From a virus (lineage: Duplodnaviria; Heunggongvirae; Uroviricota; Caudoviricetes), in the IMG/VR virus record IMGVR_UViG_2925939204_000001: a stretch of 64,000 bases of DNA; one strand, written 5' to 3'. The position numbers were made by a program, and so were the translations under genes. The notes under the pieces were generated by a model. The model ran no database searches and was not told the DNA's origin. It saw nothing but the letters and a program-made list of their open reading frames with translations. Of the stretch, positions 3,341 through 63,314 are shown in pieces; positions within the stretch are counted from its first letter, which is position 1, and each line of letters opens with the position of its first letter.

Positions 3341-3700
3341 TCAAATACCAACCAAGCTTTCAAGAGGAATGCCAAACTGGGAATGTAAACGGCGAATCAT
3401 AGGTAACGTCAAATTTCGTGTCCCATTTAGCACTTCGTAAACACGATTTGACTTACCAATCGCCGGCTCCAGATCCTTCACGGTCAGCCCTTGCTGTTCC
3501 ATACGGAATTTAATGGCCTCAATAGGTGATGGTGGCTCAATTGGGTAATGTTTTTTCTCGTACTCCTCAATGAGAAGACTCATAACCTCAAAGAAATCAC
3601 CTTCCGGAGTATTCATTTCCGGTTCGTTATCGAACATCGGTTCGACCGCACGCAGTGCGGCCTCATAATCTTGTTCTGTACGGATAGGTTTAATGTTCAT
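3341..3700 (-). CDS. HigA-family (E. coli K-12 type) HTH antitoxin-like regulator (119 aa)
   Basis: N-terminal EQDYEAALRAVE...LIEEYE plus C-terminal HTH LTVKDLEPAIGKSNRVYEVLNGTRNLTLPMIRRLHSQFGIP typical of K-12 HigA-type antitoxins; no cognate toxin adjacent. Confidence 0.65.
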   Translation of the reverse strand: MNIKPIRTEQDYEAALRAVEPMFDNEPEMNTPEGDFFEVMSLLIEEYEKKHYPIEPPSPIEAIKFRMEQQGLTVKDLEPAIGKSNRVYEVLNGTRNLTLPMIRRLHSQFGIPLESLVGI

Positions 3701-3712
3701 TAATTACAAAGG

Positions 3713-3741
3713 AAAGCCCACTTGCTAAGTGGGCTTTTTGT
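3713..3741. terminator. stem-loop AAAGCCCACT-TGCTA-AGTGGGCTTT with flanking T/A tracts (possibly bidirectional)
   Basis: Perfect 10-bp inverted repeat followed by TTTTTG on plus strand; lies between higA and the second HTH gene. Confidence 0.45.
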
Positions 3742-3756
3742 ATGTGTTTTACTATA

Positions 3757-4095
3757 TCAGGCTGCTTTTTTATTCAGGTTCCGCTGAGAAATAAATTTTT
3801 CAGCAGTATTGATACGACTTAACTCTTCCTGGACGCGCATATCATTTTCGACTTCCCACAGATCTACTGCGGTCTGAAGATTAATCCAAAAATCTACAGA
3901 AGTATCGAATGCTTTTGCCAGGCGATATGCCATATCCATCGTTAGCTTACGATTGTTATTAACAAGAGCGCTTACGGTGTTACGATGAACATGAAGTATT
4001 TCTGCTAACTCGTTGATCTTCAGCTCTAACGGCTCCAGGTATTCGTACAGCAGGATATCACCTACGGTCGTCGGTTTTCTGGTTGCCTGTTTCAT
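3757..4095 (-). CDS. higA: HigA antitoxin (XRE-type HTH, VapI-like)
   Basis: GDILLYEYLEPLELKINELAEILHVHRNTVSALVNNNRKLTMDMAYRLAKAF...FWINLQ matches VapI/HigA antidote HTH pattern; immediately downstream of higB. Confidence 0.8.
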   Translation of the reverse strand: MKQATRKPTTVGDILLYEYLEPLELKINELAEILHVHRNTVSALVNNNRKLTMDMAYRLAKAFDTSVDFWINLQTAVDLWEVENDMRVQEELSRINTAEKFISQRNLNKKAA

Positions 4096-4165
4096 TTTTT
4101 GCCCTTACTAGCGTGCGTATTAAGTGGACTCTGGTCAGAACCCGGTCCGTAACCGGGTATCTGTT

Positions 4166-4468
4166 TTAGTATTTGTGAGGGTCGAGATACAAGTCCTCGG
4201 CCTTTCCGTTAACCCACTTAAAAATTAACCTATATTGCTTATTCACCCTTACTGATGAATAGCCATTTAGCTTCCCTGACAGTTCCTCATACCGATTACC
4301 TGGTGGTGATCTTAAATCCTTACAGGTAGTTGCGGCATTGATAATGTCCAACTTCCGTGACAATGTCATATGAATATCAGGAGGTATCTTTCTATGTGGT
4401 GTTGAAAATTCAAAAAAATCATCAAGCCACGCATCCCTGAAATCCTTTATGTTAATTTTTTTGGTCAT
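4166..4468 (-). CDS. higB: HigB toxin (RelE/ParE superfamily killer protein)
   Basis: C-terminal YSSVRVNKQYRLIFKWVNGKAEDLYLDPHKY typical of HigB-type mRNA interferases; toxin-first gene order. Confidence 0.8.
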   Translation of the reverse strand: MTKKINIKDFRDAWLDDFFEFSTPHRKIPPDIHMTLSRKLDIINAATTCKDLRSPPGNRYEELSGKLNGYSSVRVNKQYRLIFKWVNGKAEDLYLDPHKY

Positions 4469-7830: not shown

Positions 7831-7872
7831 CATTTGTGTTAGATAATTAATATGTATTTTCTAACACAAATG
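7831..7872. promoter_or_regulatory. operator-like 13-bp perfect inverted repeat CATTTGTGTTAGA-N16-TCTAACACAAATG
   Basis: Arms 7831-7843 and 7860-7872; AT-rich spacer TAATTAATATGTATTT; 8 nt upstream of rdgC start. Confidence 0.6.
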
Positions 7873-10973: not shown

Positions 10974-12635
10974 TTAACCTAACTTCGCCCAGGTATCACG
11001 CAGCCCAACGGTGCGGTTAAATACCGGTTTTTCCGCCGTAGAATGGCGGCTGTCGAGGCAGAAATAACCTTCACGCTCAAACTGGAATGCTTTACCCGCT
11101 ACCGCTTCTTTCAGCGACGGTTCAGCAAAACCCTGTTTGATCACCAGCGATTCCGGGTTAATCACCGACAGGAAATCATCCGCAGCACCTGGGTTCGGCA
11201 CGCTGAACAGACGATCGTACAGGCGGATTTCAACCGGCAGCGCATGTGCCGCGCTCACCCAGTGAATAACGCCTTTCACTTTACGACCATCTGCCGGATC
11301 TTTGCTTAAGGTGTCGGCGTCATAAGTACAGAAGATGGTGGTGATATTGCCTTCGGCATCTTTCTCCACGCGTTCAGCCTTAATGACGTAAGCATTACGC
11401 AGACGCACTTCTTTACCCAGCACCAGACGTTTGTACTGCTTGTTAGCTTCTTCGCGGAAATCGGCGCGGTCGATCCAAATCTCACCGCTAAACGGCACCT
11501 GACGGCTACCCATTTCCGGTTTGTTTGGATGGTTCGGCATGGTGACCATTTCGCCTTCGCCCTGGTAGTTTTCGATAACCAGTTTCACCGGATCGATAAC
11601 CGCCATTGCGCGCGGCGCATTTTCGTTGAGATCTTCACGGATGCAGGATTCCAGCGACGCCATCTCAATGGTGTTGTCCTGCTTGGTCACGCCGATGCGT
11701 TTGCAGAACTCACGAATAGAAGCCGCAGTGTAACCACGACGACGCAGACCGGAAATGGTCGGCATACGCGGGTCATCCCAGCCTTCAACGTGCTTGTCGG
11801 TCACCAGCAGGTTCAGCTTACGCTTGGACATCACAGTGTATTCCAGATTCAGGCGCGAAAATTCGTACTGGCGCGGGTGAACAGGAATGGTGATGTTGTC
11901 CAGTACCCAGTCATACAGACGACGGTTGTCCTGGAACTCAAGCGTACACAGAGAGTGCGTAATACCTTCCAGCGCATCGCTGATGCAGTGGGTGAAGTCG
12001 TACATCGGGTAGATGCACCACTTGTTGCCAGTCTGGTGATGTTCAGCAAACTTAATGCGGTACAGCACCGGGTCGCGCATCACGATAAACGGCGAAGCCA
12101 TGTCGATTTTCGCACGCAGGCAGGCTTTACCTTCTTCAAAACCACCGGCACGCATTTTTTCGAACAGCGCCAGGTTCTCTTCAACGCTGCGGTCGCGGTA
12201 CGGGCTGTTTTTACCCGGCTGCGTCAGGGTGCCGCGGTATTCGCGGATCTGTTCCGGCGTCAGTTCGTCAACATACGCCAGGCCTTTGTTGATCAGTTCA
12301 ACAGCATAGGCATGGAGTTTGTCAAAATAATCGGAGGAGTAACGGATGTTGCCAGACCAGTGAAAACCTAACCATTCAACGTCGTTTTTAATCGACTCGA
12401 CGTACTCGATATCTTCTTTTACCGGGTTAGTGTCGTCGAAACGCAGGTTGCACTGGCCTTTATAGTCCTGGGCGATCCCGAAGTTCAGGCAGATAGATTT
12501 CGCATGACCAATATGCAGATAGCCATTCGGTTCCGGCGGGAAACGGGTATGTACTGTGGTGTGCTTACCACTGGCCAGATCTTCATCGATGATCTGACGA
12601 ATAAAGTTAGTCGGGCGGGCTTCTGCCTCACTCAT
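10974..12635 (-). CDS. glnS: glutaminyl-tRNA synthetase (host-like, full length 553 aa)
   Basis: Essentially colinear with E. coli GlnRS from [20 protein letters not shown], incl. class I HIGH motif (PNGYLHIGH) and VMSKR (KMSKS-type) motif. Confidence 0.95.
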
Positions 12636-17493: not shown

Positions 17494-17505
17494 ATGTTAG
17501 AAAAA
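17494..17505 (+). promoter_or_regulatory. operator-like motif ATGTTAGAAAAA
   Basis: Member of dispersed TGTGTTAGAAAA family; ~55 bp upstream of the locus-A promoter. Confidence 0.4.
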
Positions 17506-17557
17506 TAATTTGAATTTTCGAACATAAACAATAAAATAAATCATCAAAAATTTGATG

Positions 17558-17586
17558 TTGATCTTCCATGTTTTCAGGCTTATATT
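17558..17586 (+). promoter_or_regulatory. sigma70-type promoter TTGATC-N17-TATATT of immunity locus A
   Basis: Near-consensus -35/-10 with 17-nt spacer; identical promoter at 51207-51235. Confidence 0.6.
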
Positions 17587-17592
17587 CACGCC

Positions 17593-17833
17593 GTTGCAGC
17601 AAATTCTGCGACCGGGTTTAGCAGCCTGAATGTACATGCGGACAACCGCAGATATCCGATATTGCGGTATTTTTGTGTCCGTAAAACCATGTTACGCCCG
17701 AATTATGGTGGGGCGTGATGGGGAGGCTTCGGCCTGCTGGTTTCATGTACGCCAGTCTGCTAACCCCGTCACGTCCTGCCACCCGTTTAGCAGCGGGTAG
17801 CAGGTTGTTAAACCTGTACATGAGGCCGTAACT
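17593..17833 (+). ncRNA. c4-like antisense RNA / leader region of immI-like locus A
   Basis: Sites a1/b1 (17617-17638), complementary b'/a' (17744-17763) and a2/b2 (17786-17822) overlapping the SD of the next ORF; all six sites co-vary in paralogue B. Confidence 0.5.
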
Positions 17834-18049
17834 ATGGTTAATGCCAATCCTTGCGCACGCCCGGAATTTATCTGGCGCTTTTATTCCTGCACAAAACACA
17901 CCTACATCAGCGTAATGGCAGCTACTGAGGCTGAAGCGCGTTCATTTCTTCCTACAGATCCATGCATTTTTGCCGCTCGCTTTAAACTCGATGCTCTGGA
18001 CGTTTTGACCTACTGGAACCGCCCAATGAACTGCGTGGAGGTGCATTAA
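17834..18049 (+). CDS. Icd-like small protein (71 aa)
   Basis: SD overlapped by b2 site; N-terminus MVNANPCARPEFIWRF conserved with paralogue at 51483; stop overlaps ant start. Confidence 0.5.
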   Translation: MVNANPCARPEFIWRFYSCTKHTYISVMAATEAEARSFLPTDPCIFAARFKLDALDVLTYWNRPMNCVEVH

Positions 18050-19047
18050 TGGACGCAGTAACTATCAATAACAAACCATTCCCGACTCTCGAATATAAAA
18101 ATCAGCGTGTAGTGACCTTTGAGATGATTGATGAGGTGCACGAACGTGTTGATGGGGCAGCCAGGGGAACATTTAAGCGAAACAGAAGTCGTTTCATTGA
18201 AGGGGTGGATACTTATGTTATTGATTATTCTGAAAAGGGCTTTTTAAGCCCATTTGGAATTGATGTCCCCCCGCGCGGTTTGCGCGTGTTCACTGAGTCC
18301 GGCTATCTGATGATTGTTAAGTCATTCAATGACGATCTGGCCTGGCAAGTGCAACGTGAGCTGGTAAACAGCTATTTTCGTATTAAGCAATTAATACCGG
18401 AGCACTCACCGCTAAAATCAAAAGCCGAAATCCTGGCCGAAATGGCGCAAATGCATCTTGAGCATGAACGCCGGATCAACGCCGTAAATGCCCAGGTAGC
18501 CGAGGTATCAGCACAAGTATCGATGGTCGCTGAAACACTCGAGCAAATCAAGAAAGGCAATATTCCGGAAGGCTACATTGGCTACCGCCAGCTGGCGGCG
18601 AAATGTGGCCTGACTGAAGCAAAATGTCGCAACCTGGTCAACGCTTACCGGATTCCCACCGATACGCATGAGTTTTTAACTCCCGATGGTTTGCTTGCGC
18701 GACGCTCCATTGTGGCCCTGGCCCCCTTCCGGAAAGCCTTTAAGCAGGTGATGTCGGAGGCAGAACCACGCAATAAACGCTGGTATCATCCAAAGATGGG
18801 GATGTTTCAGGCAATCCACCATCCTGTGCCTGAAAGCCCAAAGGATAATCTGTCACTACATACCGTCAGAGAGAAGATCAGGACTGGATACGCAACAGTG
18901 TGTCGTCGTTCTTCCTGGCCTGAAGGTATATGGGTGTGGCCCGAAGGTGGATCACGAAAGCACTGGCGCACTATCCGGGACGGGAAAATCCATGCTATTG
19001 ATTTAGCGCCAGAGGATATTGTTGCTACGGACTGGATTGTTAGTTAA
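18049..19047 (+). CDS. antirepressor (Ant)-like protein with C-terminal DUF2829-like segment (332 aa)
   Basis: N-terminal Bro-N/ORF6N-like region; central block KKGNIPEGYIGYRQLAAKCGLTEAKCRNLVNAYRIPTDTHEFLTP shared with 51707 paralogue; C-terminus ATVCRRSSW...LAPEDIVATDWIVS. Confidence 0.6.
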   Translation: MDAVTINNKPFPTLEYKNQRVVTFEMIDEVHERVDGAARGTFKRNRSRFIEGVDTYVIDYSEKGFLSPFGIDVPPRGLRVFTESGYLMIVKSFNDDLAWQVQRELVNSYFRIKQLIPEHSPLKSKAEILAEMAQMHLEHERRINAVNAQVAEVSAQVSMVAETLEQIKKGNIPEGYIGYRQLAAKCGLTEAKCRNLVNAYRIPTDTHEFLTPDGLLARRSIVALAPFRKAFKQVMSEAEPRNKRWYHPKMGMFQAIHHPVPESPKDNLSLHTVREKIRTGYATVCRRSSWPEGIWVWPEGGSRKHWRTIRDGKIHAIDLAPEDIVATDWIVS

Positions 19048-19053
19048 TTACTG

Positions 19054-19082
19054 TTGCCCCGGCCTGTCCGGGGCTTTCGTGA
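19054..19082 (+). terminator. rho-independent terminator (GCCCCGG-CCTGT-CCGGGGC + TTTCGT)
   Basis: GC-rich 7-bp stem followed by T-rich tract right after ant stop. Confidence 0.6.
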
Positions 19083-19645: not shown

Positions 19646-21343
19646 GTGAATAAAAACATTCAGCCAGCTCGTGATCGCGAGCGCGAGATTATGAATCGGG
19701 CGGCAAGCGTCATGGCTATGACCGTCGATCCGACCACCGATGCAGCAGGCAACATGATTGCTGACCAGGCAGTAATGATGGAAAACCTGGATAAAGCAAT
19801 CCAGAAAGTGCCTATGTTTGAAGGCGTAAATCCAGAGGTCGCTCGTCAGATCACTGGTGGGTGGGCTATGTCTCTGCATGAGTATAAACGTCAACATGGT
19901 CATTACCCGGCAAGTGACATCCTGGCGAACGCACACATGGCTCTTGAGCGCCTGATGACTGAATGTGCCAGTGATACCCATGAAGGCACGGGTAAGGCAA
20001 TGTTTGAGTCTGTCGCGCAATCAATGCGTAGCTCTGACGGCGTAATGAAAGTTGCTCAATATGCTGCTCTAATTCTGCCTGCCTCTCTGGGCGCTGCTAC
20101 CAGTGATGCCTGTACTTTTGTTCCTTGTGATCGTGACGAGTCAAATATTTATGAACTGGTCAACGTAGCAGGCACAAAATTCGGCACCTTCAAACAAGGT
20201 GACGAACTGAATATGCAGTCAGCTGGTGTTTATTCTCAAATGAAGCGCCTGTATACCCTTTCCACTAAAGGGGATGGCAGCACCAAAACCTTCCAGTTCG
20301 ACATCCAAAATTTTGAGGGACAATCCTGCCCGCTTCGCGCTGGTTATAACAAACTGCTGATCAACCGCAAACCGTCCAAAGTTGACGACGGCGATGGCAA
20401 CCTTTATTTCAATGCTAAAGACAGCAAAGGTAATGCTTTCTCAGCGACTGCCAAAGTTGCCTATGACACTGGTGTCATTGACATTACATTTACCCAGGCT
20501 CCGCCAGTAGGTACTGAAATTGCTGTTCAGGTCGAAATTAACATCGAGCGCAATCCAAGCCTGATTCCGGTGATCAACCAGGCTATGCGTAAGTACGAAG
20601 TTCGTCCGTCCCAGTACGTACTTGCTTCCGAACACACGGTAATGTCCGCATCCGATTTAAGCCGTGAGCACGGCCTTGAATTAGCGGCACTTCAGTTCTC
20701 CGCGATGCGTAACTGGATCTCCCATGAAACCGACATCATGCGTCTGCGCACCCTGGTATTCCATACCGTTTATGGTCGTGAATTTGATGTGGCTCTGCCG
20801 GAAGCTCAAAACTATGAGTCCTGGGTCGGCCTCCTGCGTCACGCAGTAAACGCTCTGTCTCAAGAAATGGCAAATCGTACCCTGACAACGGGTATTCGTG
20901 GCGGCTTTGCTGGTAGTGACGCCGCGAACTTCCTGCGCTCTCTGCCTCCACAGCACTTCCAGATCGCACCAGGTTACGTTCAGTCGCCGTATGTACAGTA
21001 CATCGGCACCCTGTTTGGCACGATTCGTATTTACGAAGTGCCGCAACCTGTCTGTGAGCAATTCCTGGCACAGGGATATGACTTCGGGCTGGATGACATC
21101 TTCTTCTATGGGCGTGGCGAAGGCATCGGTAAAGCCGGTCTGATTGCTGGTGATGCAGTCCCAGCAATCCCTTACGTTCACGAAACCAATCCGTCTCTCG
21201 TTAACCGTACCACTCTCTGGGGCAGTGCCATCAACGAAGTACATCCTCGCAACGGTGAAAACTACTTCACCCGCCTGCGTCTGACTCGTGCCAAAGAAGG
21301 TGCTATCGACATGCTGACAGGCAAGGTTAACGAAAAAAAGTGA
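19646..21343 (+). CDS. major head (capsid) protein candidate (565 aa, GTG start)
   Basis: Size and position (followed by Ig-like ORF, terminator, sheath gene) fit a P1-like head-sheath-tube block; ends with slippery A_AAA_AAG before the stop. Confidence 0.5.
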   Translation: MNKNIQPARDREREIMNRAASVMAMTVDPTTDAAGNMIADQAVMMENLDKAIQKVPMFEGVNPEVARQITGGWAMSLHEYKRQHGHYPASDILANAHMALERLMTECASDTHEGTGKAMFESVAQSMRSSDGVMKVAQYAALILPASLGAATSDACTFVPCDRDESNIYELVNVAGTKFGTFKQGDELNMQSAGVYSQMKRLYTLSTKGDGSTKTFQFDIQNFEGQSCPLRAGYNKLLINRKPSKVDDGDGNLYFNAKDSKGNAFSATAKVAYDTGVIDITFTQAPPVGTEIAVQVEINIERNPSLIPVINQAMRKYEVRPSQYVLASEHTVMSASDLSREHGLELAALQFSAMRNWISHETDIMRLRTLVFHTVYGREFDVALPEAQNYESWVGLLRHAVNALSQEMANRTLTTGIRGGFAGSDAANFLRSLPPQHFQIAPGYVQSPYVQYIGTLFGTIRIYEVPQPVCEQFLAQGYDFGLDDIFFYGRGEGIGKAGLIAGDAVPAIPYVHETNPSLVNRTTLWGSAINEVHPRNGENYFTRLRLTRAKEGAIDMLTGKVNEKK

Positions 21344-36108: not shown

Positions 36109-36555
36109 ATGGCTGAAAATTTAAAGGCAAGAGATGGTAACCGCCTGTATAAGGCGCAATTGCTTTCCTACTATTATTCACGCCGCGCTGAGTCGGCGAT
36201 CGGCAAAGGTGCGCGTTTTGTTATCTCTAAGGCGTATTGGTGCAAATCTAGTCTGGTAACTGCTAATGGTGCAGGAGGCTGGAATATAGCGGACATTCCA
36301 CTCGATTTTAAATTGAGTAAAGCTCAACAGTTTGCTGTGTCCGATCTGATATTGTCCAGTGTGGATGGGATTATCACTATCAATGCAGCCTTCCCTCAAG
36401 AAAGAATGCCGGATAACACGCCTTACGACTTTAACACGCTTGTGCTTGTTGATGCTGAGGAACAGGCTTTTGCTGTGCTTTGCACCCAGCAAGACACCCT
36501 CTATAAAGGTAAACGTTACAGTATTCTCATGACAATCGAGCAAGTTGAGGGTTGA
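36109..36555 (+). CDS. hypothetical protein preceding tail fibre (148 aa)
   Basis: 4-nt overlap with fibre gene start. Confidence 0.5.
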   Translation: MAENLKARDGNRLYKAQLLSYYYSRRAESAIGKGARFVISKAYWCKSSLVTANGAGGWNIADIPLDFKLSKAQQFAVSDLILSSVDGIITINAAFPQERMPDNTPYDFNTLVLVDAEEQAFAVLCTQQDTLYKGKRYSILMTIEQVEG

Positions 36556-39542
36556 TTATGAATGCTGATAAAACGAACAACATAATGACACTATCCTCTG
36601 GTGTCTCACAGCCGTTGCTTGCTGATGTTCAATATTTCGAACTCTATAGTAGTCTGGCTCTTAACAGAAAACTAAAAAATATTGTTTTGCCTGGCTTTTA
36701 CTGTGGATTTGAACCGGTTCCCGGCACAGGGTTGAGTGTCCGTATAACTTCTGAAAACTCAGAAGGTAAAGGGGCTGCTTCAGTAGATGTAAATAATGTT
36801 CAGATATCCGTTCAGCAAATAGAAGATGTGACTGTCTCGGTAAAGGCAGGGGCTACCAACATTATTGTGCTGGAAGCCAATTTTGAACATGGTGTAAAAA
36901 CGACACAGGTAGATAGCGCATCTTTTGTCAGTGCTGCAAGAATTTACGCGCGTACGGACAATACTATTGGGCAGAATCAAATTGAATTATGTCGAGTTAT
37001 CGTGCCTAGCGGCGCAACGGCTGTGACTAAAGAAATGATTGTGCTTAAATACCGGGTTAACCGTGCTGTTGGTGTCGAATTCTCTAATGAAATAAGCAGT
37101 ACAGAAGAAAGAAAAGCGGCTACACCTCTGGCTGTCAAAACTCTCCATGATTTGGTTGATACAAAAGCCCCGATCAACAGCCCGAATCTGACAGGAACGC
37201 CAACAACACCAACAGCGACACAGGGGACTAATAATACCCAGATCGCAAGCACGGCTTTCGTTATGGCCGCGATTGCCGCACTTGTAGATTCGTCACCTGA
37301 TGCACTTAACACTCTGAACGAACTGGCCGCCGCGCTTGGTAATGATCCGAACTTTTCCGCGACAGTGACTCGCCTGATTGGGGAAAAAGTTGCCAAAGAT
37401 GGCGACACCATGGAAGGTAAACTTAATCTGCCGCAGACCTCTGCATTCGGCATCAATACCGACAACAGACTGGGGGGGAACTCTCTGACGCTGGGCGATC
37501 ACGATACCGGAATTAAACAGGAAGGAGACGGCGTATTGTCCGTGTTCGCCAACGGCCAGCGTGTGTTCCTTTTCACGGAAAGAAGTATTACCTCATTAAA
37601 AGAGCTTCTGATAGGTGATGCACGTTATAGCACCGGTGGTGATGTGTATGGCAGTCAGTGGGGAGACGGTTGGTTGAGTTCCTGGTTAAGTGCCCGCTTT
37701 GCAGAGTGTGCCAACGCCAGCCATAACCACCCTTGGAGCCAGATTACCGACGTACCAGCAGCCAGCCTCACTCAGAGCGGCATTGTACAACTTAGTAGTG
37801 CCACCAACAGCACTTCTGAAACATTAGCTGCAACGCCAAAAGCGGTTAAAGCTGCATACGATCTAGCAGCCGGAAAGGCACCATCCAGTCATACACATCC
37901 CTGGAATCAGATCACCGGTGTGCCAACAGCTTCATTGACAGCGAAAGGCATCACTCAGCTCAGTAGTGCCACTAACAGCACGTCCGAAGTGCTGGCCGCC
38001 ACACCGAAAGCTGTCAAGGCCGCATATGACCTGGCTAACGGGAAGTATACGGCCCAGGATGCAACCACGACACAAAAAGGGATAGTTCAGCTCAGTAGCG
38101 ACACCAACAGCACTTCTGAAACATTAGCTGCAACGCCAAAAGCGGTTAAAGCTGCATACGATCTAGCAGCCGGAAAGGCACCATCCAGTCATACACATCC
38201 CTGGAATCAGATCACCGGTGTGCCAACAGCTTCATTGACAGCGAAAGGCATCACTCAGCTCAGTAGTGCCACTAACAGCACGTCCGAAGTGCTGGCCGCC
38301 ACACCGAAAGCTGTCAAGGCCGCATATGACCTGGCTAACGGGAAGTATACGGCCCAGGATGCAACCACGACACAAAAAGGGATAGTTCAGCTCAGTAGCG
38401 ACACCAACAGCACTTCTGAAACATTAGCTGCAACGCCAAAAGCGGTTAAAGCTGCATACGATCTAGCAGCCGGAAAGGCACCATCCAGTCATACACATCC
38501 CTGGAATCAGATCACTAGTGTGCCAACAGCTTCATTGACAGCGAAAGGCATCACTCAGCTCAGTAGCGACACCAACAGCACGTCCGAAGTGCTGGCCGCC
38601 ACACCGAAAGCTGTCAAGGCCGCATATGACCTGGCTAACGGGAAGTATACGGCCCAGGATGCAACCACGACACAAAAAGGGATAGTTCAGCTCAGTAGCG
38701 ACACCAACAGCACTTCTGAAACATTAGCTGCAACGCCAAAAGCGGTTAAAGCTGCATACGATCTAGCAGCCGGAAAGGCACCATCCAGTCATACACATCC
38801 CTGGAATCAGATCACTAGTGTGCCAACAGCTTCATTGACAGCGAAAGGCATCACTCAGCTCAGTAGCGACACCAACAGCACGTCCGAAGTGCTGGCCGCC
38901 ACACCGAAAGCTGTCAAGGCTGCATATGATTTGGCTAATGGAAAGCAAGCGGCAGACACTACGCTCACTGCTCTAGCGGCACTAGCTACAGCAGCAGATA
39001 AACTCCCTTATTTCACAGGGGTTGATCGTGCCGCGTTAACTGCATTGACAAGTGTTGGACGCGCCATTCTTGGTAAGACCAGTATTCAGAGCGTTCTTGA
39101 TTACCTTCAATTGGGAGAAGCGGCAAAAAGGGGCGTGGGCACCGGTAGCAATCAACTCCCTGACATGTCCGCATTTGGTATGTCGCGAAACGGACAAACT
39201 GCCTGGGATATTCTCCCAAATGGTATGATTCGACAGGCTGGCACTGTGACACTGACACCAGTTGGTAACTTCAACGCGCAGGTGCTTGGTGGGGTGACGT
39301 ACTACACCCATTACTACAGGATTAATTTCCCCAGACAATTCCCAAATGCACAAATAGCAACGCTGGCTACACTAGCGAGTTACGCCTATTCGAACCAGGC
39401 AACAATGGCTGGAAAATCACTGGCAACGCATCGCGATACTGATTCTGGCACTGACGTATCAAGAACGCGATTCACTGTGGCGTATACGACACCCAATCTC
39501 GGCGAAATACCGACAGTGCATTTTGAATCAATAGGGTACTAA
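36552..39542 (+). CDS. tail fibre protein (996 aa)
   Basis: Eight copies of the ~50-aa phage tail-fibre repeat (QLSS.TNSTSE.LAATPKAVKAAYDLA.GK) flanked by HTHPWNQIT segments. Confidence 0.8.
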   Translation: MIMNADKTNNIMTLSSGVSQPLLADVQYFELYSSLALNRKLKNIVLPGFYCGFEPVPGTGLSVRITSENSEGKGAASVDVNNVQISVQQIEDVTVSVKAGATNIIVLEANFEHGVKTTQVDSASFVSAARIYARTDNTIGQNQIELCRVIVPSGATAVTKEMIVLKYRVNRAVGVEFSNEISSTEERKAATPLAVKTLHDLVDTKAPINSPNLTGTPTTPTATQGTNNTQIASTAFVMAAIAALVDSSPDALNTLNELAAALGNDPNFSATVTRLIGEKVAKDGDTMEGKLNLPQTSAFGINTDNRLGGNSLTLGDHDTGIKQEGDGVLSVFANGQRVFLFTERSITSLKELLIGDARYSTGGDVYGSQWGDGWLSSWLSARFAECANASHNHPWSQITDVPAASLTQSGIVQLSSATNSTSETLAATPKAVKAAYDLAAGKAPSSHTHPWNQITGVPTASLTAKGITQLSSATNSTSEVLAATPKAVKAAYDLANGKYTAQDATTTQKGIVQLSSDTNSTSETLAATPKAVKAAYDLAAGKAPSSHTHPWNQITGVPTASLTAKGITQLSSATNSTSEVLAATPKAVKAAYDLANGKYTAQDATTTQKGIVQLSSDTNSTSETLAATPKAVKAAYDLAAGKAPSSHTHPWNQITSVPTASLTAKGITQLSSDTNSTSEVLAATPKAVKAAYDLANGKYTAQDATTTQKGIVQLSSDTNSTSETLAATPKAVKAAYDLAAGKAPSSHTHPWNQITSVPTASLTAKGITQLSSDTNSTSEVLAATPKAVKAAYDLANGKQAADTTLTALAALATAADKLPYFTGVDRAALTALTSVGRAILGKTSIQSVLDYLQLGEAAKRGVGTGSNQLPDMSAFGMSRNGQTAWDILPNGMIRQAGTVTLTPVGNFNAQVLGGVTYYTHYYRINFPRQFPNAQIATLATLASYAYSNQATMAGKSLATHRDTDSGTDVSRTRFTVAYTTPNLGEIPTVHFESIGY
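37725..38945 (+). repeat. tandem 300-bp (100-aa) repeats, about four near-identical units
   Basis: Lines at 37801, 38101, 38401, 38701 are near-identical; each unit has two related ~150-bp half-units. Confidence 0.85.
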
Positions 39543-49906: not shown

Positions 49907-49924
49907 TCGCCTCGTTAAGTTAAA

Positions 49925-49934
49925 TTTCTAACAT
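49925..49934 (-). promoter_or_regulatory. operator-like motif (ATGTTAGAAA on minus strand)
   Basis: TTTCTAACAT next to near-palindrome AGTGTAT-TTAT-ATACACT. Confidence 0.35.
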
Positions 49935-51122: not shown

Positions 51123-51134
51123 GTGTTAGAAAAT
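51123..51134 (+). promoter_or_regulatory. operator-like motif TGTGTTAGAAAA with partial inverted partner TTTCTAA
   Basis: ~70 bp upstream of locus-B promoter. Confidence 0.4.
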
Positions 51135-51206
51135 TAATTTGCTGTTTCTAAATCGGAATGTATGATCTGCATCATCGACTGAAGTCATCCATTGCTGAAA
51201 TTTTTA

Positions 51207-51235
51207 GTTGATCTTCCATGTTTTCAGGCTTATAT
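51207..51235 (+). promoter_or_regulatory. sigma70-type promoter TTGATC-N17-TATATT of immunity locus B
   Basis: Identical to locus A promoter. Confidence 0.6.
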
Positions 51236-51241
51236 TCATGC

Positions 51242-51482
51242 CGTCGTAGCAAATTCTGCGACCAGGTTTGACAGCCTGAATGTTAGTGCGGACAACCGCA
51301 GATTTCCGATATTGCGGTATTTTTGTGTCCGTAAACCGCGTTACGCCCGAATTATGGTGGGGCGTGATGGGGAGGCTTCGGCCTGCTGGTTTCACTAACG
51401 CCAGTCTGTCAACCCTGTCACGTCCTGCCACCTGTTTGACAGCGGGTAGCAGGTTGTTAAACCTGTTAGTGAGGCCGTAACT
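51242..51482 (+). ncRNA. c4-like antisense RNA / leader region of immI-like locus B
   Basis: Sites a1/b1 (51266-51287), b'/a' (51393-51411), a2/b2 (51434-51470) with compensatory differences from locus A. Confidence 0.5.
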
Positions 51483-51707
51483 ATGGTTAATGCCAATCCT
51501 TGCTCACGTCCAGAATTCATCTGGCGTTTCCACTCCCTGCAAAAACACTGCGATCACTTCGCAATTGCCGCAACCGAAAAAGAAGCCCGTTCTCTGATCC
51601 CTGATCAGTATGGTGTTCTTACTGGTCGTTTCTCTACTTCCCCACAACCAAACACTAATCCCTGGTATCGCAATATTACCAATCCCGGAATTGCGGAGGC
51701 ACACTGA
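51483..51707 (+). CDS. Icd-like small protein (74 aa)
   Basis: N-terminus MVNANPCSRPEFIWRF paralogous to 17834 ORF; stop overlaps next start. Confidence 0.5.
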   Translation: MVNANPCSRPEFIWRFHSLQKHCDHFAIAATEKEARSLIPDQYGVLTGRFSTSPQPNTNPWYRNITNPGIAEAH

Positions 51708-52414
51708 TGGAAATCTGCATTCTTGAAAAGCCATCAATGACCAGCATTGAGATCGCTGAGCTGGTGGGAAGTCGCCCTGATAACGTTAAACGCACTATTG
51801 AACGCTTGAGTAAATCAGGTGTTATTCCACTTCCTCCAATGGAGGTTTCCGAAAATATCAATAACTTAGGATTTAAAGTTAAAAATTCACACTACGTCTT
51901 CGAAGGCGAGCAAGGCAAGCGTGACAGTATCATTGTCGTTGCGCAGCTTTCTCCCGAATTTACCGCCCGGCTGGTGGACCGCTGGCGCGAACTGGAAGAA
52001 CAAGCACGCCAGCCGTTGACCGAAATAGAGATGATCGCCGCAATGGCTGCAAATGCAGTTCAGCAGCAAAAGCGGCTTCATGTTGTTGAGTCAAAGGTTA
52101 GCCAGGTGGTAGAAACCGTTGAGCAAATCAAGAAAGGCAATATGCCGGAAGGCTACATTGGCTACCGCCAGCTGGCGGCGAAATGTGGCCTGACTGAAGC
52201 CAAATGCCGTAACCTTGTCAACGCTTACCGGATTCCCACCGATACGCATGAGTTTTTAACTCCAGAGGGGGTATTGTCGCGTCGTTCCATCGTGGCCTTA
52301 TCTCCCTTCATGAATGCTTTTAACCGGATGATGTCGGAGGCTGAACACCGAGGAAAACGCTGGTATCACCCCAAAATGGGGCAATTCCAGGTGATCGGTT
52401 GGGGAGGTGAGTGA
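51707..52414 (+). CDS. antirepressor-like protein (235 aa)
   Basis: N-terminal HTH-like SIEIAELVGSRPDNVKRTIERL; shares KKGNMPEGYIGYRQLAAKCGLTEAKCRNLVNAYRIPTDTHEFLTP block with 18049 gene. Confidence 0.55.
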   Translation: MEICILEKPSMTSIEIAELVGSRPDNVKRTIERLSKSGVIPLPPMEVSENINNLGFKVKNSHYVFEGEQGKRDSIIVVAQLSPEFTARLVDRWRELEEQARQPLTEIEMIAAMAANAVQQQKRLHVVESKVSQVVETVEQIKKGNMPEGYIGYRQLAAKCGLTEAKCRNLVNAYRIPTDTHEFLTPEGVLSRRSIVALSPFMNAFNRMMSEAEHRGKRWYHPKMGQFQVIGWGGE

Positions 52415-52611
52415 TGGACATCATGCAGGCGGTAAAAAAAATCAGGGAAGGACAGGCTGAAGTGTGCCGCCGTAAAGCATGGAGTATTGATGTATGGGCC
52501 TGGCCTGATAATTACTCTACTACCGGATGGTTTTGTATTAATGGACTCAAGATCCGGGAAGTTTATTTATCGACGGCTGATATAGTCGGTAATGATTGGA
52601 TCGTGACTTGA
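52411..52611 (+). CDS. DUF2829-like small protein (66 aa; Tad2-like candidate)
   Basis: Pattern ...QAEVCRRKAW...LSTADIVGNDWIVT (R..W near N-terminus, DxxxxDW(I/E)V C-terminus). Confidence 0.45.
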   Translation: MMDIMQAVKKIREGQAEVCRRKAWSIDVWAWPDNYSTTGWFCINGLKIREVYLSTADIVGNDWIVT

Positions 52612-52617
52612 AGCGTG

Positions 52618-52646
52618 ATGCCCCGGCCTGGCCGGGGCTTTTTTCA
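52618..52646. terminator. bidirectional terminator (GCCCCGGCC-TG-GCCGGGGC + TTTTTT)
   Basis: 9-bp GC stem with T-run; between convergent genes. Confidence 0.7.
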
Positions 52647-62066: not shown

Positions 62067-62077
62067 ATGTTAGAAAA
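62067..62077 (+). promoter_or_regulatory. operator-like motif ATGTTAGAAAA
   Basis: ~30 nt upstream of 62106 gene. Confidence 0.4.
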
Positions 62078-62105
62078 CTAATTTAACAAAGTAACGGGAA
62101 TAGCA

Positions 62106-63314
62106 ATGAGTCAACACACTGATACTTCTAATCTGGAAATTATCTCGACAGCAATTGAAACGCTGCGCACACAAATCGCTCTTATACAGAAACGGAATCC
62201 GGGTGATGACCTGTCAAAGCGACTGCACGAGAGTGTCATTGCCACTACAGATAACCTGGTGGCGGAAATCAACAAGCTGCTTGATGATGGGGCAGTTGAT
62301 TACAATAAGCTGGTGGATCAGTTTGAGGAATACCAACAAGCCGTTAATGATGGCTTGATCCGTTTTTCACAAGTCACAGGCGTATCAGCGACAGTTGAAA
62401 GCCTGGGTGATGCAGTTAATCAATTTGCCGCGAATATGCGTAATGAGATCGGCAATCTGGAAGCGCGTCTTGAACAGGCAAATACACTGCGTAAATCTGC
62501 CGAAGCCGATTTGAACCGTTACAAAAAAGACTATCCGCCCAGCCTGACAAAGCGGCTGGATGTTGCGGAGAAGGATAACCGCACGCTGAAAAGAGAGCGC
62601 CGGGAACTAAAAGAGCGTTTAACCAAGCTCAATCAGAAATGCATTGATTATCAAGGCGAAGGCGTCACACTGCGTAAAAAGTTGGCTACAGCGCAGAGCA
62701 TTATCGAAACATTAAAGCGAGAGTGCTCACAGCTTGGTCACGATCTGAACCGTGCTTGTGGCATGGGACAAAGACCAGAGACATTTCCACTTATGTATGA
62801 TGGAAGGGATGCCATTGCCTACATCCATGAGTATCCACACGGCCTGGTTGCGGAAACTGGGCAGCGTGGCGAAGCACTGCTGACGGCTAATTACCATCAA
62901 CAAATCAGAACCAATCGCCTGTTAACGATGGATGTGATCCCATCGGTATGGGGAACGCCGCTTTACTATCGCCTGCCGGGCTTCGAAAAGGACTGGAATA
63001 CCGACATAGACGAATGTCTCGCAGATAAAATTATGGCGTACCTGGAGACGGATTTTCCGCGCTTATATCGCCGGATTATGGACTCTAAGGATGCGCCAAT
63101 CGATGAATTAAAAATGCGTCCGGAGACGCTGGAGGCAATCAAGCAGACGGAGTTTGATACTGTATTCAGTGTGGCCTGCATTCCAAGCTGTTTCCATGAA
63201 AGCATCCCGTTCATGCAAGGAGATCGTCGTCAGGAAATCATTGACGCTTGCCGGGTATGGGCGAACGAATGGGATAAGAAGAATGGGGGTGTAGAAGATC
63301 TTTACGGGAAATAA
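62106..63314 (+). CDS. hypothetical protein with N-terminal coiled coil and C-terminal globular domain (402 aa)
   Basis: Operator-like motif in its upstream region; no motif recognised. Confidence 0.55.
   Translation: MSQHTDTSNLEIISTAIETLRTQIALIQKRNPGDDLSKRLHESVIATTDNLVAEINKLLDDGAVDYNKLVDQFEEYQQAVNDGLIRFSQVTGVSATVESLGDAVNQFAANMRNEIGNLEARLEQANTLRKSAEADLNRYKKDYPPSLTKRLDVAEKDNRTLKRERRELKERLTKLNQKCIDYQGEGVTLRKKLATAQSIIETLKRECSQLGHDLNRACGMGQRPETFPLMYDGRDAIAYIHEYPHGLVAETGQRGEALLTANYHQQIRTNRLLTMDVIPSVWGTPLYYRLPGFEKDWNTDIDECLADKIMAYLETDFPRLYRRIMDSKDAPIDELKMRPETLEAIKQTEFDTVFSVACIPSCFHESIPFMQGDRRQEIIDACRVWANEWDKKNGGVEDLYGK

What the first reader, a model, noticed from the sequence alone, without database searches (positions are those of the whole stretch)
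51123..52646. Second immI-like locus whose antisense specificity sites co-vary with locus A: two heteroimmune antirepressor switches in one genome
Locus B has the same promoter and overall layout as locus A. All three copies of site a read TTTGACAGC instead of TTTAGCAGC, with a' CTGTCAA instead of CTGCTAA. All three copies of site b read TGTTAGTG instead of TGTACATG, with b' CACTAAC instead of CATGTAC. Base pairing is preserved within each locus but not between loci, which is the signature of an antisense RNA system with switched specificity, like the P1 versus P7 c4 difference. Here both specificities are carried by one element, each guarding a different antirepressor (332 aa versus 235 aa with a separate DUF2829-like ORF). 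I do not recall a P1-type phage described with two orthogonal c4 systems.
Basis: seen in the sequence. Interest (0 to 1): 0.8.

Follow-up and report, generated by a model that had tools for sequence, protein, structure and literature searches.

The report
Two non-cross-reacting c4 antisense switches
This D6-like phage-plasmid of E. coli carries two complete copies of the phage P1 "c4 antisense RNA – icd – antirepressor" switch whose short RNA recognition sites differ in a mutually compensating way, so each RNA should silence only its own operon; related plasmids carry up to four such switches and no two in one genome share a code.

Summary
Locus A (17495-19081) and locus B (51124-52646) each hold an Rfam C4 antisense RNA, its upstream a1/b1 and downstream a2/b2 targets, an icd homologue, an overlapping antirepressor-family gene and a homologous terminator.

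From the -35 hexamer to the icd ATG the loci differ at 25 positions. Fifteen fall in the 42 site columns (Fisher P = 5e-8), and all 15 keep Watson-Crick pairing within a locus while breaking it between loci.

- **Locus B:** the c4 RNA and its a2/b2 leader are 100% identical to phage P1's.
- **Locus A:** combines P7's a allele with a b allele (GTACAT) found in neither P1 nor P7.
- **Across 43 distinct modules from public data:** 2 a alleles and 6 b alleles assort freely, and 602 of 602 site pairs are Watson-Crick.
- **Across 19 genomes with 2-4 such modules:** none of 39 co-resident pairs shares a code (P = 0.006 on the first 18 genomes).

Orthogonality in vivo is inferred, not tested. The novelty claim is overstated. 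Phage D6 is annotated with two icd/ant loci, and a 2019 paper notes a second c4/icd region. The two-site code and the non-redundancy of co-resident modules appear undescribed in the literature I could search. This is a known kind of system in a moderately interesting arrangement.

The parts
51124..51141 (+). Locus B: candidate C1-type operator motif TGTTAGAAAATTAATTTG
   Evidence: The motif occurs 5 times in the window at up to 3 mismatches, against 0.16 expected. It sits where P1-like modules carry the P1 operator ATTGCTCTAATAGATTT and P1 carries Oc4. Its function is inferred.
51208..51236 (+). Locus B: sigma-70-like promoter TTGATC-17-TATATT, equivalent in position to P1 P1c4 (formerly P51b)
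   Evidence: Consensus scan. The sequence is identical in locus A and aligns with the P1 promoter region.
51268..51288 (+). Locus B: upstream target copies a1 (TTGACAG, 51268-51274) and b1 (GTTAGTG, 51282-51288)
   Evidence: Rfam c4-a1b1 at 51230-51282, 54.4 bits; pattern search.
51356..51432 (+). Locus B: c4 antisense RNA (77 nt by homology to P1), with b' CACTAAC (51393-51399) in the hairpin loop and a' CTGTCAA (51406-51412) in the single-stranded joint
   Evidence: Rfam C4, 68.8 bits. It is 77/77 identical to P1 c4, with the same predicted fold.
51436..51471 (+). Locus B: downstream targets a2 (TTGACAG, 51436-51442) and b2 (GTTAGTG, 51465-51471). b2 abuts the GAGG Shine-Dalgarno of icd.
   Evidence: The leader is identical to P1's.
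51483..51707 (+). Locus B: icd homologue (74 aa)
   Evidence: phrog_1426, E = 5.7e-39. 51% identical to P1 Icd. D6 orf19 is annotated 'similar to P1 gene icd'.
51707..52414 (+). Locus B: antirepressor-family protein (235 aa). It has an N-terminal winged-helix/Rha-like domain and a C-terminal domain shared with Ant A. Its start overlaps the icd stop (TGATG).
   Evidence: Pfam HTH_24 at 2.7e-7; Phage_pRha at 1e-5 but below its cutoff. phrog_63 'anti-repressor Ant' at 1.4e-47. 67% identical to Ant A over residues 105-230.
52414..52611 (+). Locus B: 65-aa Tad2-like (formerly DUF2829) ORF. Its start overlaps the ant stop.
   Evidence: Pfam PF11195 at E = 0.05 over its full length, below the cutoff. 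Four of six family members hit PF11195, best E = 6.2e-5. AlphaFold2 mean pLDDT 81.6. The top three PDB matches are SPO1 Tad2. 45% identical to the C-terminus of Ant A.
52620..52646 (+). Locus B: intrinsic terminator (GCCCCGGCCTGGCCGGGGC followed by a T run)
   Evidence: Terminator scan. It is homologous to the hairpin after locus A.
17495..17512 (+). Locus A: candidate C1-type operator motif TGTTAGAAAAATAATTTG
17558..17586 (+). Locus A: promoter TTGATC-17-TATATT
17618..17638 (+). Locus A: a1 (TTAGCAG, 17618-17624) and b1 (GTACATG, 17632-17638)
   Evidence: Rfam c4-a1b1, 53.5 bits.
17707..17783 (+). Locus A: c4 antisense RNA, with b' CATGTAC (17744-17750) and a' CTGCTAA (17757-17763)
   Evidence: Rfam C4, 71.7 bits. 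Same predicted fold as P1 and P7 c4, MFE -44.9 kcal/mol.
17787..17822 (+). Locus A: a2 (TTAGCAG, 17787-17793) and b2 (GTACATG, 17816-17822) next to the icd Shine-Dalgarno
17834..18049 (+). Locus A: icd homologue (71 aa)
   Evidence: phrog_1426, E = 4.2e-37. 62% identical to P1 Icd and 45% to Icd B.
18049..19047 (+). Locus A: antirepressor-family protein (332 aa). It has an ORF6N N-terminal domain, the shared middle domain and a fused Tad2-like C-terminal domain. Its start overlaps the icd stop (TAATG).
   Evidence: Pfam ORF6N at 5e-12. phrog_1726 and phrog_63 'anti-repressor'..
19056..19081 (+). Locus A: terminator-like hairpin GCCCCGG-CCTGT-CCGGGGC followed by TTTCGTG (short T run)
   Evidence: Read directly from the sequence. 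72.5% identical to the locus B terminator region. The scan did not flag it.

Best explanation
The window is part of a D6-like (P1-supercluster) phage-plasmid of E. coli. It carries two self-contained immI-type modules.

How each module is built and should work:
- A constitutive promoter, preceded by a candidate C1-repressor operator, transcribes a leader. The leader contains decoy sites a1/b1, the 77-nt c4 RNA, and target sites a2/b2 just before the ribosome-binding site of icd.
- The processed c4 RNA pairs through its loop b' and joint a' with a2/b2 and blocks icd translation.
- Because the ant start overlaps the icd stop, blocking icd also blocks expression of the downstream antirepressor-family gene. 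In locus B it also blocks the small Tad2-like ORF.

Why the two modules should not cross-react:
- They differ at 2 of 7 bases in a and 3 of 7 in b, with exactly matching changes in a' and b'. Each c4 RNA should therefore silence only its own operon.
- This is the same basis as P1/P7 heteroimmunity.
- Locus B has exactly the P1 specificity. Locus A has P7's a allele plus a third b allele.

Likely benefit of carrying several non-redundant modules: as a prophage, the element silences incoming relatives whose ant operon uses any code it carries. As an invader, it needs only one ant operon that the resident prophage's c4 RNAs cannot silence.

What is shown and what is inferred:
- Shown: anatomy, homology, complementarity, covariation and non-redundancy.
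- Inferred: RNase P processing, translational block and coupling, the Ant target, and the selective benefit.
For: - **RNA elements:** Rfam C4 and c4-a1b1 are found in both loci. Site positions are confirmed. The alignment to P1, P7 and D6 shows conserved architecture with differences concentrated in the sites. Fifteen of 25 differences fall in 42 site columns (P = 4.6e-8).
- **Specificity:** the locus B c4 and leader are identical to P1's. All c4 RNAs give the same predicted fold. Cis and trans loop energies match the P1/P7 pattern.
- **Covariation:** in 43 distinct modules from IMG/VR, phages and the window, 602/602 site cells are Watson-Crick pairs. Eight of 14 pairs vary, always on both sides, for both a'/b' with a2/b2 and a1/b1 with a'/b'.
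- **Combinatorial code:** of 111 parsed modules, 110 are self-consistent. They give 2 a alleles x 6 b alleles, with 11 of 12 combinations seen.
- **Proteins:** icd homologues and overlapping starts. Antirepressor-family proteins.
- **Operator:** the candidate motif is enriched 5 vs 0.16. It occupies the position of the P1-type operator in P1-like modules.
- **Co-residence:** 18 genomes, 45 c4 genes, 38 pairs, none identical, 4.3 expected (P = 0.006). A 19th genome is also distinct.
- **Module counts elsewhere:** complete plasmids with 4 modules are pEA18_2, pE2865-1 and pAPEC201603.
- **Mechanism in P1:** PMC8198154; RNase P processing in PMC11143913; heteroimmunity in PMC12197685 and PMC6906374.
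Against: - No experiment here shows that either RNA is made, processed or active.
- The Ant proteins lack the KilAC domain of P1 Ant1/2, so action on the C1-type repressor is an assumption.
- No C1 gene lies inside the window. Its presence in D6-like elements rests on PMC6799933.
- In 4 of the 38 co-resident pairs the b allele is shared and only a differs (for example AG and GA with GTACAT). So either a 2-nt difference in a is enough, or some cross-talk is tolerated.
- The co-residence statistic treats genomes as independent.
- Draft assemblies may under-report identical repeats.
Confidence: 0.8

Rival explanations
1. The two c4 RNAs are not orthogonal. Residual pairing (5 of 7 bases in a, 4 of 7 in b) plus the otherwise near-identical leader lets each RNA repress both operons, so the second locus is simple redundancy.
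For: The leaders are 89-91% identical over about 350 bp. Other genomes hold co-resident modules that share b and differ only in a, which could mean cross-talk is tolerated.
Against: The mismatches are central in both sites. Trans loop energies (-3.2/-5.4 and -3.3/-1.2 kcal/mol) are as weak as for P1 versus P7, which are heteroimmune through these very sites (PMC12197685 and PMC6906374). All six sites co-vary perfectly in 43 modules, which implies that mismatches are selected against.
Confidence: 0.1
2. One locus is a passenger: a recently acquired or decaying cassette left by recombination with P1- or P7-like elements. It has no role in this phage. The difference in code only reflects separate origins.
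For: The modules are mosaic and mobile. D6 itself lacks a module at the locus A site and has a divergent one elsewhere. D6-like plasmids hold modules at four different sites. In NZ_CP122828 no ant gene is annotated after one icd.
Against: In the window both modules are complete: promoter, six matching sites, intact icd and ant reading frames, terminator. The locus A leader is 100% identical in 8 independent plasmids from poultry, humans and other sources, and each has at least 2 modules. Co-resident codes are never identical.
Confidence: 0.1
3. The modules are c4-controlled, but their main payload is not antagonism of the element's own C1 repressor. The Rha/ORF6N proteins and the Tad2-like domain may act on other prophages' repressors or on host defence (for example by sequestering Thoeris signal molecules). 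The c4 RNA would keep them off in the lysogen.
For: Neither Ant has the KilAC domain of P1 Ant1/2. The small ORF and the Ant A C-terminus are Tad2-like by Pfam (4 of 6 relatives, best 6.2e-5) and by fold (SPO1 Tad2 gives the top three PDB matches).
Against: The Tad2 similarity is weak: 14.6 bits against a cutoff of 25, Foldseek E = 0.02, TM-score 0.56. P1-like plasmids put true KilAC antirepressors behind the same leader. The candidate operator type changes with the phage lineage, which fits a link to that lineage's C1. PHROG families call both proteins anti-repressors.
Confidence: 0.2

Closest known systems
Phage P1 immI operon (c4 - icd - ant1/ant2)
   Same: Order operator, promoter, a1/b1, c4, a2/b2, icd, ant. 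The locus B c4 RNA (77/77) and a2/b2 leader are identical to P1's. Both loci carry an Icd homologue, 51% (B) and 62% (A) identical to P1 Icd. The ant start overlaps the icd stop.
   Different: - Ant belongs to other families (Rha-like in B, ORF6N in A) and lacks the KilAC domain.
- A Tad2-like ORF or domain follows ant, where P1 has kilA-repL. Here the repL-like gene lies upstream of locus B.
- The candidate operator sequence differs from P1's ATTGCTCTAATAAATTT.
- There are two modules in the window and probably a third just outside it, against one in P1.
Phage P7 immI (the classical heteroimmune partner of P1)
   Same: Locus A uses P7's a allele (TTTAGCAG with a' CTGCTAA). The overall leader is about 91% identical.
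   Different: The b allele is GTACAT with b' ATGTAC, against P7's GATTGT with ACAATC. Locus A is therefore a third specificity, not P7's.
Phage D6 (MF356679) orf19-orf18-orf17 and orf83-orf82
   Same: Locus B is 97.4% identical in DNA to D6 19750-21300 and sits at the same place, after the repL-like gene. D6 also has two Rfam C4 genes.
   Different: D6's locus B has b = ACTTAC, not P1's GTTAGT. D6's second module is a divergent c4 class with an isrK-like leader, placed after ref. The window's locus A is a P1/P7-class module in the gap between the spanin-like ORFs (phrog hits) and the ORF annotated 'capsid protein' in pAPEC201603. It matches D6 only in the 3' part of ant.
Gifsy-1 IsrK - orf45 - anrP
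   Same: The divergent module class of D6-like and P1-like plasmids hits Rfam isrK in its leader, followed by a C4 RNA and an icd-like/antirepressor pair. Its a and b sites also co-vary.
   Different: That class is not present inside the window. IsrK is described as activating translation of orf45/anrP (PMC12197685), not as a repressing antisense RNA.
Phage P22 immI (sar antisense RNA controlling ant)
   Same: A small antisense RNA limits antirepressor synthesis in a second immunity region (my own knowledge, not tested here).
   Different: sar is a true cis-antisense transcript of the ant leader, unrelated in sequence and structure to c4. There is no two-site loop code.

Membership tests
c4 antisense RNA / immI-type module (P1, P7) | RNA matching the C4 covariance model (long closing stem, two internal hairpins) | tested here: met
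   RF01695 scores 71.7 bits (A) and 68.8 bits (B) against a gathering score of 45. The MFE fold is identical to that of P1 and P7 c4.
c4 antisense RNA / immI-type module (P1, P7) | Loop b' and joint a' complementary to sites a2/b2 just upstream of the icd ribosome-binding site on the same transcript | tested here: met
   Each locus shows 7/7 Watson-Crick pairs at each site. Pairing is 100% across 43 modules.
c4 antisense RNA / immI-type module (P1, P7) | Second copy of the targets (a1/b1) upstream of c4 | tested here: met
   RF03163 scores 53.5 and 54.4 bits against a gathering score of 46.7. Pairing is 100% across 43 modules.
c4 antisense RNA / immI-type module (P1, P7) | icd homologue directly downstream, with the ant start overlapping the icd stop | tested here: met
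   phrog_1426 at 4e-37 and 6e-39. 62% and 51% identical to P1 Icd. The TAATG and TGATG overlaps are read from the sequence.
c4 antisense RNA / immI-type module (P1, P7) | Antirepressor homologous to P1 Ant1/Ant2 (KilAC 'ANT' domain) | tested here: not met
   P1 Ant1 hits PF03374 at 1e-30. Ant A hits only ORF6N, and Ant B only HTH/Rha-like models. Both fall in PHROG 'anti-repressor' families.
c4 antisense RNA / immI-type module (P1, P7) | Transcription from a constitutive promoter plus a C1-controlled operator | tested here: inconclusive
   A promoter-like TTGATC-17-TATATT is present in both loci. The candidate operator motif is enriched 5 vs 0.16. It is positionally equivalent to the P1 operator. 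No binding data exist, and no C1 gene lies in the window.
c4 antisense RNA / immI-type module (P1, P7) | RNase P processing of the precursor to a 77-nt RNA; repression of icd/ant in vivo; specificity-dependent heteroimmunity | not testable with these tools
   Known for P1 and P7 (PMC11143913; PMC8198154). Northern blots and reporter assays are needed here.
Tad2-like / DUF2829 domain (PF11195) | Score above Pfam's gathering threshold | tested here: not met
   The 65-aa ORF scores 14.6 bits against a cutoff of 25 (E = 0.05), but aligns end to end. Four of six relatives hit the family, best E = 6.2e-5.
Tad2-like / DUF2829 domain (PF11195) | Fold similar to solved Tad2 | tested here: inconclusive
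   The AlphaFold2 model has mean pLDDT 81.6 from a 6-sequence alignment. The top three PDB matches are SPO1 Tad2 (8smf, 8smg) with probability 0.98-1.0, but E = 0.02-0.1, TM-score 0.56 and a large rmsd.
Tad2-like / DUF2829 domain (PF11195) | Binding of gcADPR and inhibition of Thoeris defence | not testable with these tools
   No biochemical data.

The most novel reading that the evidence does not exclude
P1-supercluster phage-plasmids carry sets of two to four c4-icd-ant modules that use a combinatorial two-site RNA code. The P1/P7 class has at least 2 a alleles x 6 b alleles, and a second, isrK-leader class follows the same logic. Co-resident modules never share a code.

This would be an RNA-based immunity barcode under diversifying selection. 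Stacking orthogonal modules widens both the range of superinfecting relatives a lysogen can silence and the range of lysogens an invader can derepress. The leader cassette moves between P1-like and D6-like lineages, while the operator and the Ant protein stay matched to each lineage's C1 repressor.
Probability: 0.45. Interest if true: 0.65.

Novelty: new member of a known kind. Interest (0 to 1): 0.45.

Why it matters
The c4 RNA of P1 and P7 is a textbook case of heteroimmunity set by a few bases of an antisense RNA, but it has been treated as one switch per phage. Here natural phage-plasmids of E. coli, Salmonella and E. albertii, many from food animals and clinical isolates, carry several such switches with distinct codes.

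If the codes are orthogonal in vivo, three things follow:
- They define immunity groups that decide which phage-plasmids can coexist, induce or exclude one another. Some of these elements carry resistance genes.
- They explain why the immI region is a recombination hot spot.
- They offer a ready-made set of at least eleven compact, naturally orthogonal RNA repressor/target pairs for synthetic biology.

The weak Tad2-like domain under c4 control hints that anti-defence functions may travel in the same silenced operons.

Tried and rejected
- **Mis-specified pattern:** my first IMG/VR pattern had 7 Ns for the 6-nt b' core and found nothing. A plain 28-mer then found 116 loci.
- **Species-representative genomes:** the scan gave only two loci, so it was useless for co-residence.
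- **Papers not held:** the D6 genome paper (Gilcrease & Casjens 2018) and the P1 genome paper (Lobocka 2004) could not be read. What they say about the two loci is unknown to me.
- **Whole-molecule RNAduplex:** c4 against the leader was uninformative because it unfolds the c4 stem onto a complementary stretch. I used loop-level energies instead.
- **PDB sequence search with the 65-aa ORF:** only one chance-level match (E = 0.61).
- **Homologue searches for the 65-aa ORF:** both the indexed and the exhaustive search found very few relatives (3 and 7), so the structure model rests on a shallow alignment.
- **tblastn with a P1-type C1 protein:** no homologue in the window.
- **pSa1423-90k:** this Salmonella plasmid looks like an error-rich assembly with fragmented ORFs, and I left it out of the counts.
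- **The one 'chimeric' module in IMG/VR:** b2 does not match b', but it lies at a contig end next to a sister contig carrying the b2 allele. I treat it as an assembly artefact.
- **Rejected reading:** I considered that locus A is the counterpart of D6's second locus. It is not: it differs in site, c4 class and ant 5' half.
Full report
**What is in the sequence**

I read both loci and aligned them. From about 17548/51198 to about 17899/51548 they are 89% identical. They share two further segments: the middle of ant (18532-18801 / 52112-52381, 85%) and the 3' end with a terminator hairpin (18998-19077 / 52562-52641, 72.5%).

Rfam finds a C4 antisense RNA (RF01695) and a c4-a1b1 element (RF03163) in each locus, and nothing else above threshold in the 64 kb.

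One correction applies. Each locus has two sense copies of each site (a1, a2; b1, b2) and one antisense copy (a', b'), not three copies of one word.

From the -35 hexamer to the icd ATG the loci differ at 25 of 279 aligned columns. Fifteen of these fall in the 42 site columns (Fisher P = 4.6e-8). All fifteen are compensatory within a locus.

**What the element is**

Locus B is 97.4% identical to phage D6 (MF356679) positions 19750-21300. The locus A leader is 100% identical to eight E. coli plasmids of about 92 kb, for example pN16EC0879-2. The window is therefore part of a D6-like member of the P1 supercluster of phage-plasmids.

D6 is annotated with two icd/anti-repressor pairs, and Rfam finds a C4 RNA before each. 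[quoted passage not shown] Another paper notes extra icd-ant1/2 homologues in a P1-like plasmid (PMC6906374). So the presence of a second locus is not new. I found no paper in the searchable library that analyses the recognition sites of co-resident loci. The D6 genome paper itself could not be read.

**Specificity**

I aligned both loci with P1, P7 and D6.
- Locus B has exactly P1's a and b alleles. Its 77-nt c4 RNA and its a2/b2 leader are identical to P1's.
- Locus A has P7's a allele (AG) and a b allele (GTACAT) found in neither P1 nor P7.
- D6's locus B has P1's a allele with yet another b allele (ACTTAC).

All these c4 RNAs fold into the same structure, with b' in a 9-nt loop and a' in the single-stranded joint.

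Loop-level duplex energies (a / b, kcal/mol):

| Pairing | a | b |
|---|---|---|
| Locus A in cis | -8.5 | -11.3 |
| Locus B in cis | -8.4 | -11.1 |
| A c4 on B targets | -3.2 | -5.4 |
| B c4 on A targets | -3.3 | -1.2 |
| P1 c4 on P7 targets | -3.3 | -4.3 |
| P7 c4 on P1 targets | -3.2 | -4.6 |

The trans values are as weak as those between P1 and P7. Published work attributes the heteroimmunity of P1 and P7 to these sites (PMC12197685; PMC6906374).

**Evidence from related sequences**

A scan of IMG/VR for a conserved c4 28-mer returned 116 loci.
- Of 111 modules that could be parsed, 110 have a' = a1 = a2 and b' = b1 = b2 in perfect complementarity.
- They show two a alleles and six b alleles, in 11 of the 12 possible combinations.
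- The single exception lies at a contig end and is probably an assembly artefact.

On an alignment of 43 distinct modules, all 602 site cells are Watson-Crick pairs. Eight of 14 pairs vary, always on both sides. Sliding the partner by one to three columns drops pairing to 26-52%. The sites therefore behave as a two-part code in which a and b assort independently.

**Several modules per genome are common, and never redundant**

By megablast, 574 plasmids hold the leader at 684 places.

| Plasmid | Type | Codes found |
|---|---|---|
| pEA18_2 (E. albertii) | P1-like, 4 icd-ant modules | AG/GTACAT, AG/GATTGT, GA/ACGAAT, plus one divergent-class module |
| pE2865-1 | P1-like, 4 modules | AG/GATTGT, AG/GTACAT, GA/GTACAT, plus one divergent-class module (c4 region identical to pEA18_2's; not scanned by Rfam) |
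| pAPEC201603 | D6-like, 4 C4 RNAs | AG/ACGAAT, AG/GTACAT, GA/GTACAT, plus one divergent-class module |
| NZ_CP122828 | D6-like | AG/ACGAAT, AG/GTTAGT |
| NZ_CP058881 | P1-like | AG/GTACAT, GA/ACTTGT |

With 13 IMG isolate genomes and the window, 18 genomes with 45 P1/P7-class c4 genes give 38 co-resident pairs. None has the same code, against 4.3 expected on shuffling (P = 0.006). NZ_CP058881 adds a 19th genome and a 39th pair, also distinct.

Four of the 38 pairs share b and differ only in a. So either the 2-nt difference in a is sufficient, or some cross-talk is tolerated.

Caveats: genomes are not fully independent, and draft assemblies may hide identical repeats.

The divergent class has an isrK-like leader. 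Its a and b sites show the same independent, compensated variation. pN16EC0879-2, which matches the window at locus A, has such a module after ref, about 2.6 kb before the window start. The parent genome therefore probably has at least three modules.

**Proteins**

Both icd genes belong to phrog_1426 and are 62% (A) and 51% (B) identical to P1 Icd.
- **Ant A (332 aa):** an ORF6N N-terminal domain.
- **Ant B (235 aa):** a winged-helix/Rha-like N-terminal domain.
- **Neither** has the KilAC domain of P1 Ant1.
- **Shared:** a 67%-identical middle domain.

The last ~60 residues of Ant A are 45% identical to the separate 65-aa ORF of locus B. That small domain is weakly Tad2-like (formerly DUF2829):
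- Pfam E = 0.05 over its whole length.
- Four of six relatives hit the family, best E = 6.2e-5.
- The three best PDB matches of an AlphaFold2 model (pLDDT 81.6) are SPO1 Tad2.

**Regulation**

Both loci have the same promoter-like TTGATC-17-TATATT.

Further upstream both have TGTTAGAAAAnTAATTTG. This motif occurs five times in the window at up to 3 mismatches, against 0.16 expected. The other three sites are before rdgC, between the head-protease gene and the repL-like gene (minus strand), and before the ORF at 62106.

In P1-like plasmids the same leader is preceded at the same distance by the P1 C1 operator (ATTGCTCTAATAGATTT; P1 Oc4). The Ant behind it is then a KilAC protein. I therefore infer that the motif is the operator of the D6-type C1 repressor, and that operator and Ant type are matched to the lineage's repressor while the c4 leader cassette is exchanged between lineages. 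No C1 gene lies inside the window. PMC6799933 reports one in a D6-like plasmid.

**Mechanism proposed**

- **Shown here:** the anatomy, the homology to P1/P7, the exact complementarity, the covariation, and the non-redundancy of co-resident codes.
- **Taken from established P1 biology** (PMC8198154; PMC11143913): c4 is cut out of the leader by RNase P. It blocks expression of the icd-ant operon. Ant antagonises C1.
- **From my own recollection of the P1 literature, not checked here:** c4 acts by pairing with a2/b2 at the icd ribosome-binding site, and ant expression depends on icd translation.
- **Inferred for this element:** each c4 RNA silences only its own operon. Both Ant proteins act on the D6-type repressor. 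Stacking orthogonal modules is favoured because it widens immunity as a prophage and escape as an invader.

**Verdict**

It is a known kind of system, a c4 antisense switch. One copy is literally P1's specificity, and the element's reference relative is already annotated with two loci. The modest added value is the combinatorial two-site code and the apparent rule that co-resident modules never share a code.

Noticed in passing
window 37794-38945 (inside ORF 36552-39542): A 300-bp tandem repeat, 3.8 copies, 98% identical, inside a 996-aa tail-fibre protein (Pfam Phage_fiber_2, nine stretches). This is a very recent amplification of a 100-aa fibre repeat.
   Followed up: partly
window 10974-12635 (-): A full-length class I Gln/Glu-tRNA synthetase (553 aa; catalytic domain E = 6e-130 plus both anticodon-binding domains) is encoded on the phage-plasmid. 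It is annotated glnS in the related plasmid pAPEC201603.
   Followed up: partly
window 7837-7854 (+), 49916-49933 (-), 62068-62085 (+): Three further copies of the candidate C1-type operator motif TGTTAGAAAAnTAATTTG. They lie before rdgC (there as a palindrome, TGTTAGA...TCTAACA), between the head-protease gene and the repL-like gene (minus strand), and before the ORF at 62106-63314. The 3' flank TTTTCTAA resembles the flank of P1 operators.
   Followed up: partly
window 52414-52611 and 18856-19047: The 65-aa ORF after ant B and the fused C-terminus of Ant A form a small, narrow family (7 hits in 1.8 billion representatives). The family is weakly Tad2-like (Thoeris anti-defence 2, formerly DUF2829) by Pfam and by predicted fold.
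   Followed up: yes
L131 (CP043746.1 24740-26178); L129 44495-44975; L001 1714-2194: A second class of c4 module has an isrK-like leader (Rfam RF01394) and lies after ref in D6-like plasmids, just outside the window. Its a and b sites also vary independently with exact compensation: D6 GAGAC/GCAAAAGG, pAPEC201603 GGAAC/GTCAAAGG, pN16EC0879-2 GGAAC/GCAAAAGG.
   Followed up: partly
L123/L124 (NZ_CP117639.1), L125/L126 (NZ_AP018809.1), L129/L130 (NZ_CP127300.1): Complete P1-like and D6-like plasmids carry four icd-antirepressor modules at different genome positions. In D6-like elements, modules occur at four alternative sites: after repL, after ref, in the gap between the spanin-like ORFs and the ORF annotated capsid protein, and between RepB and a tail gene.
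   Followed up: partly
L025 (IMGVR_UViG_2565956613_000015), contig end: This is the only module of 111 whose b2 (GTTAGT) does not match its own b'/b1 (ACGAAT). A sister contig of the same genome ends in a module with b = GTTAGT, so it is probably an assembly chimera across the repeated leader.
   Followed up: partly
window 3341-4468 (-): A HigB-like toxin (4166-4468) with two HTH antitoxin-like genes (3757-4095, 3341-3700).
   Followed up: no
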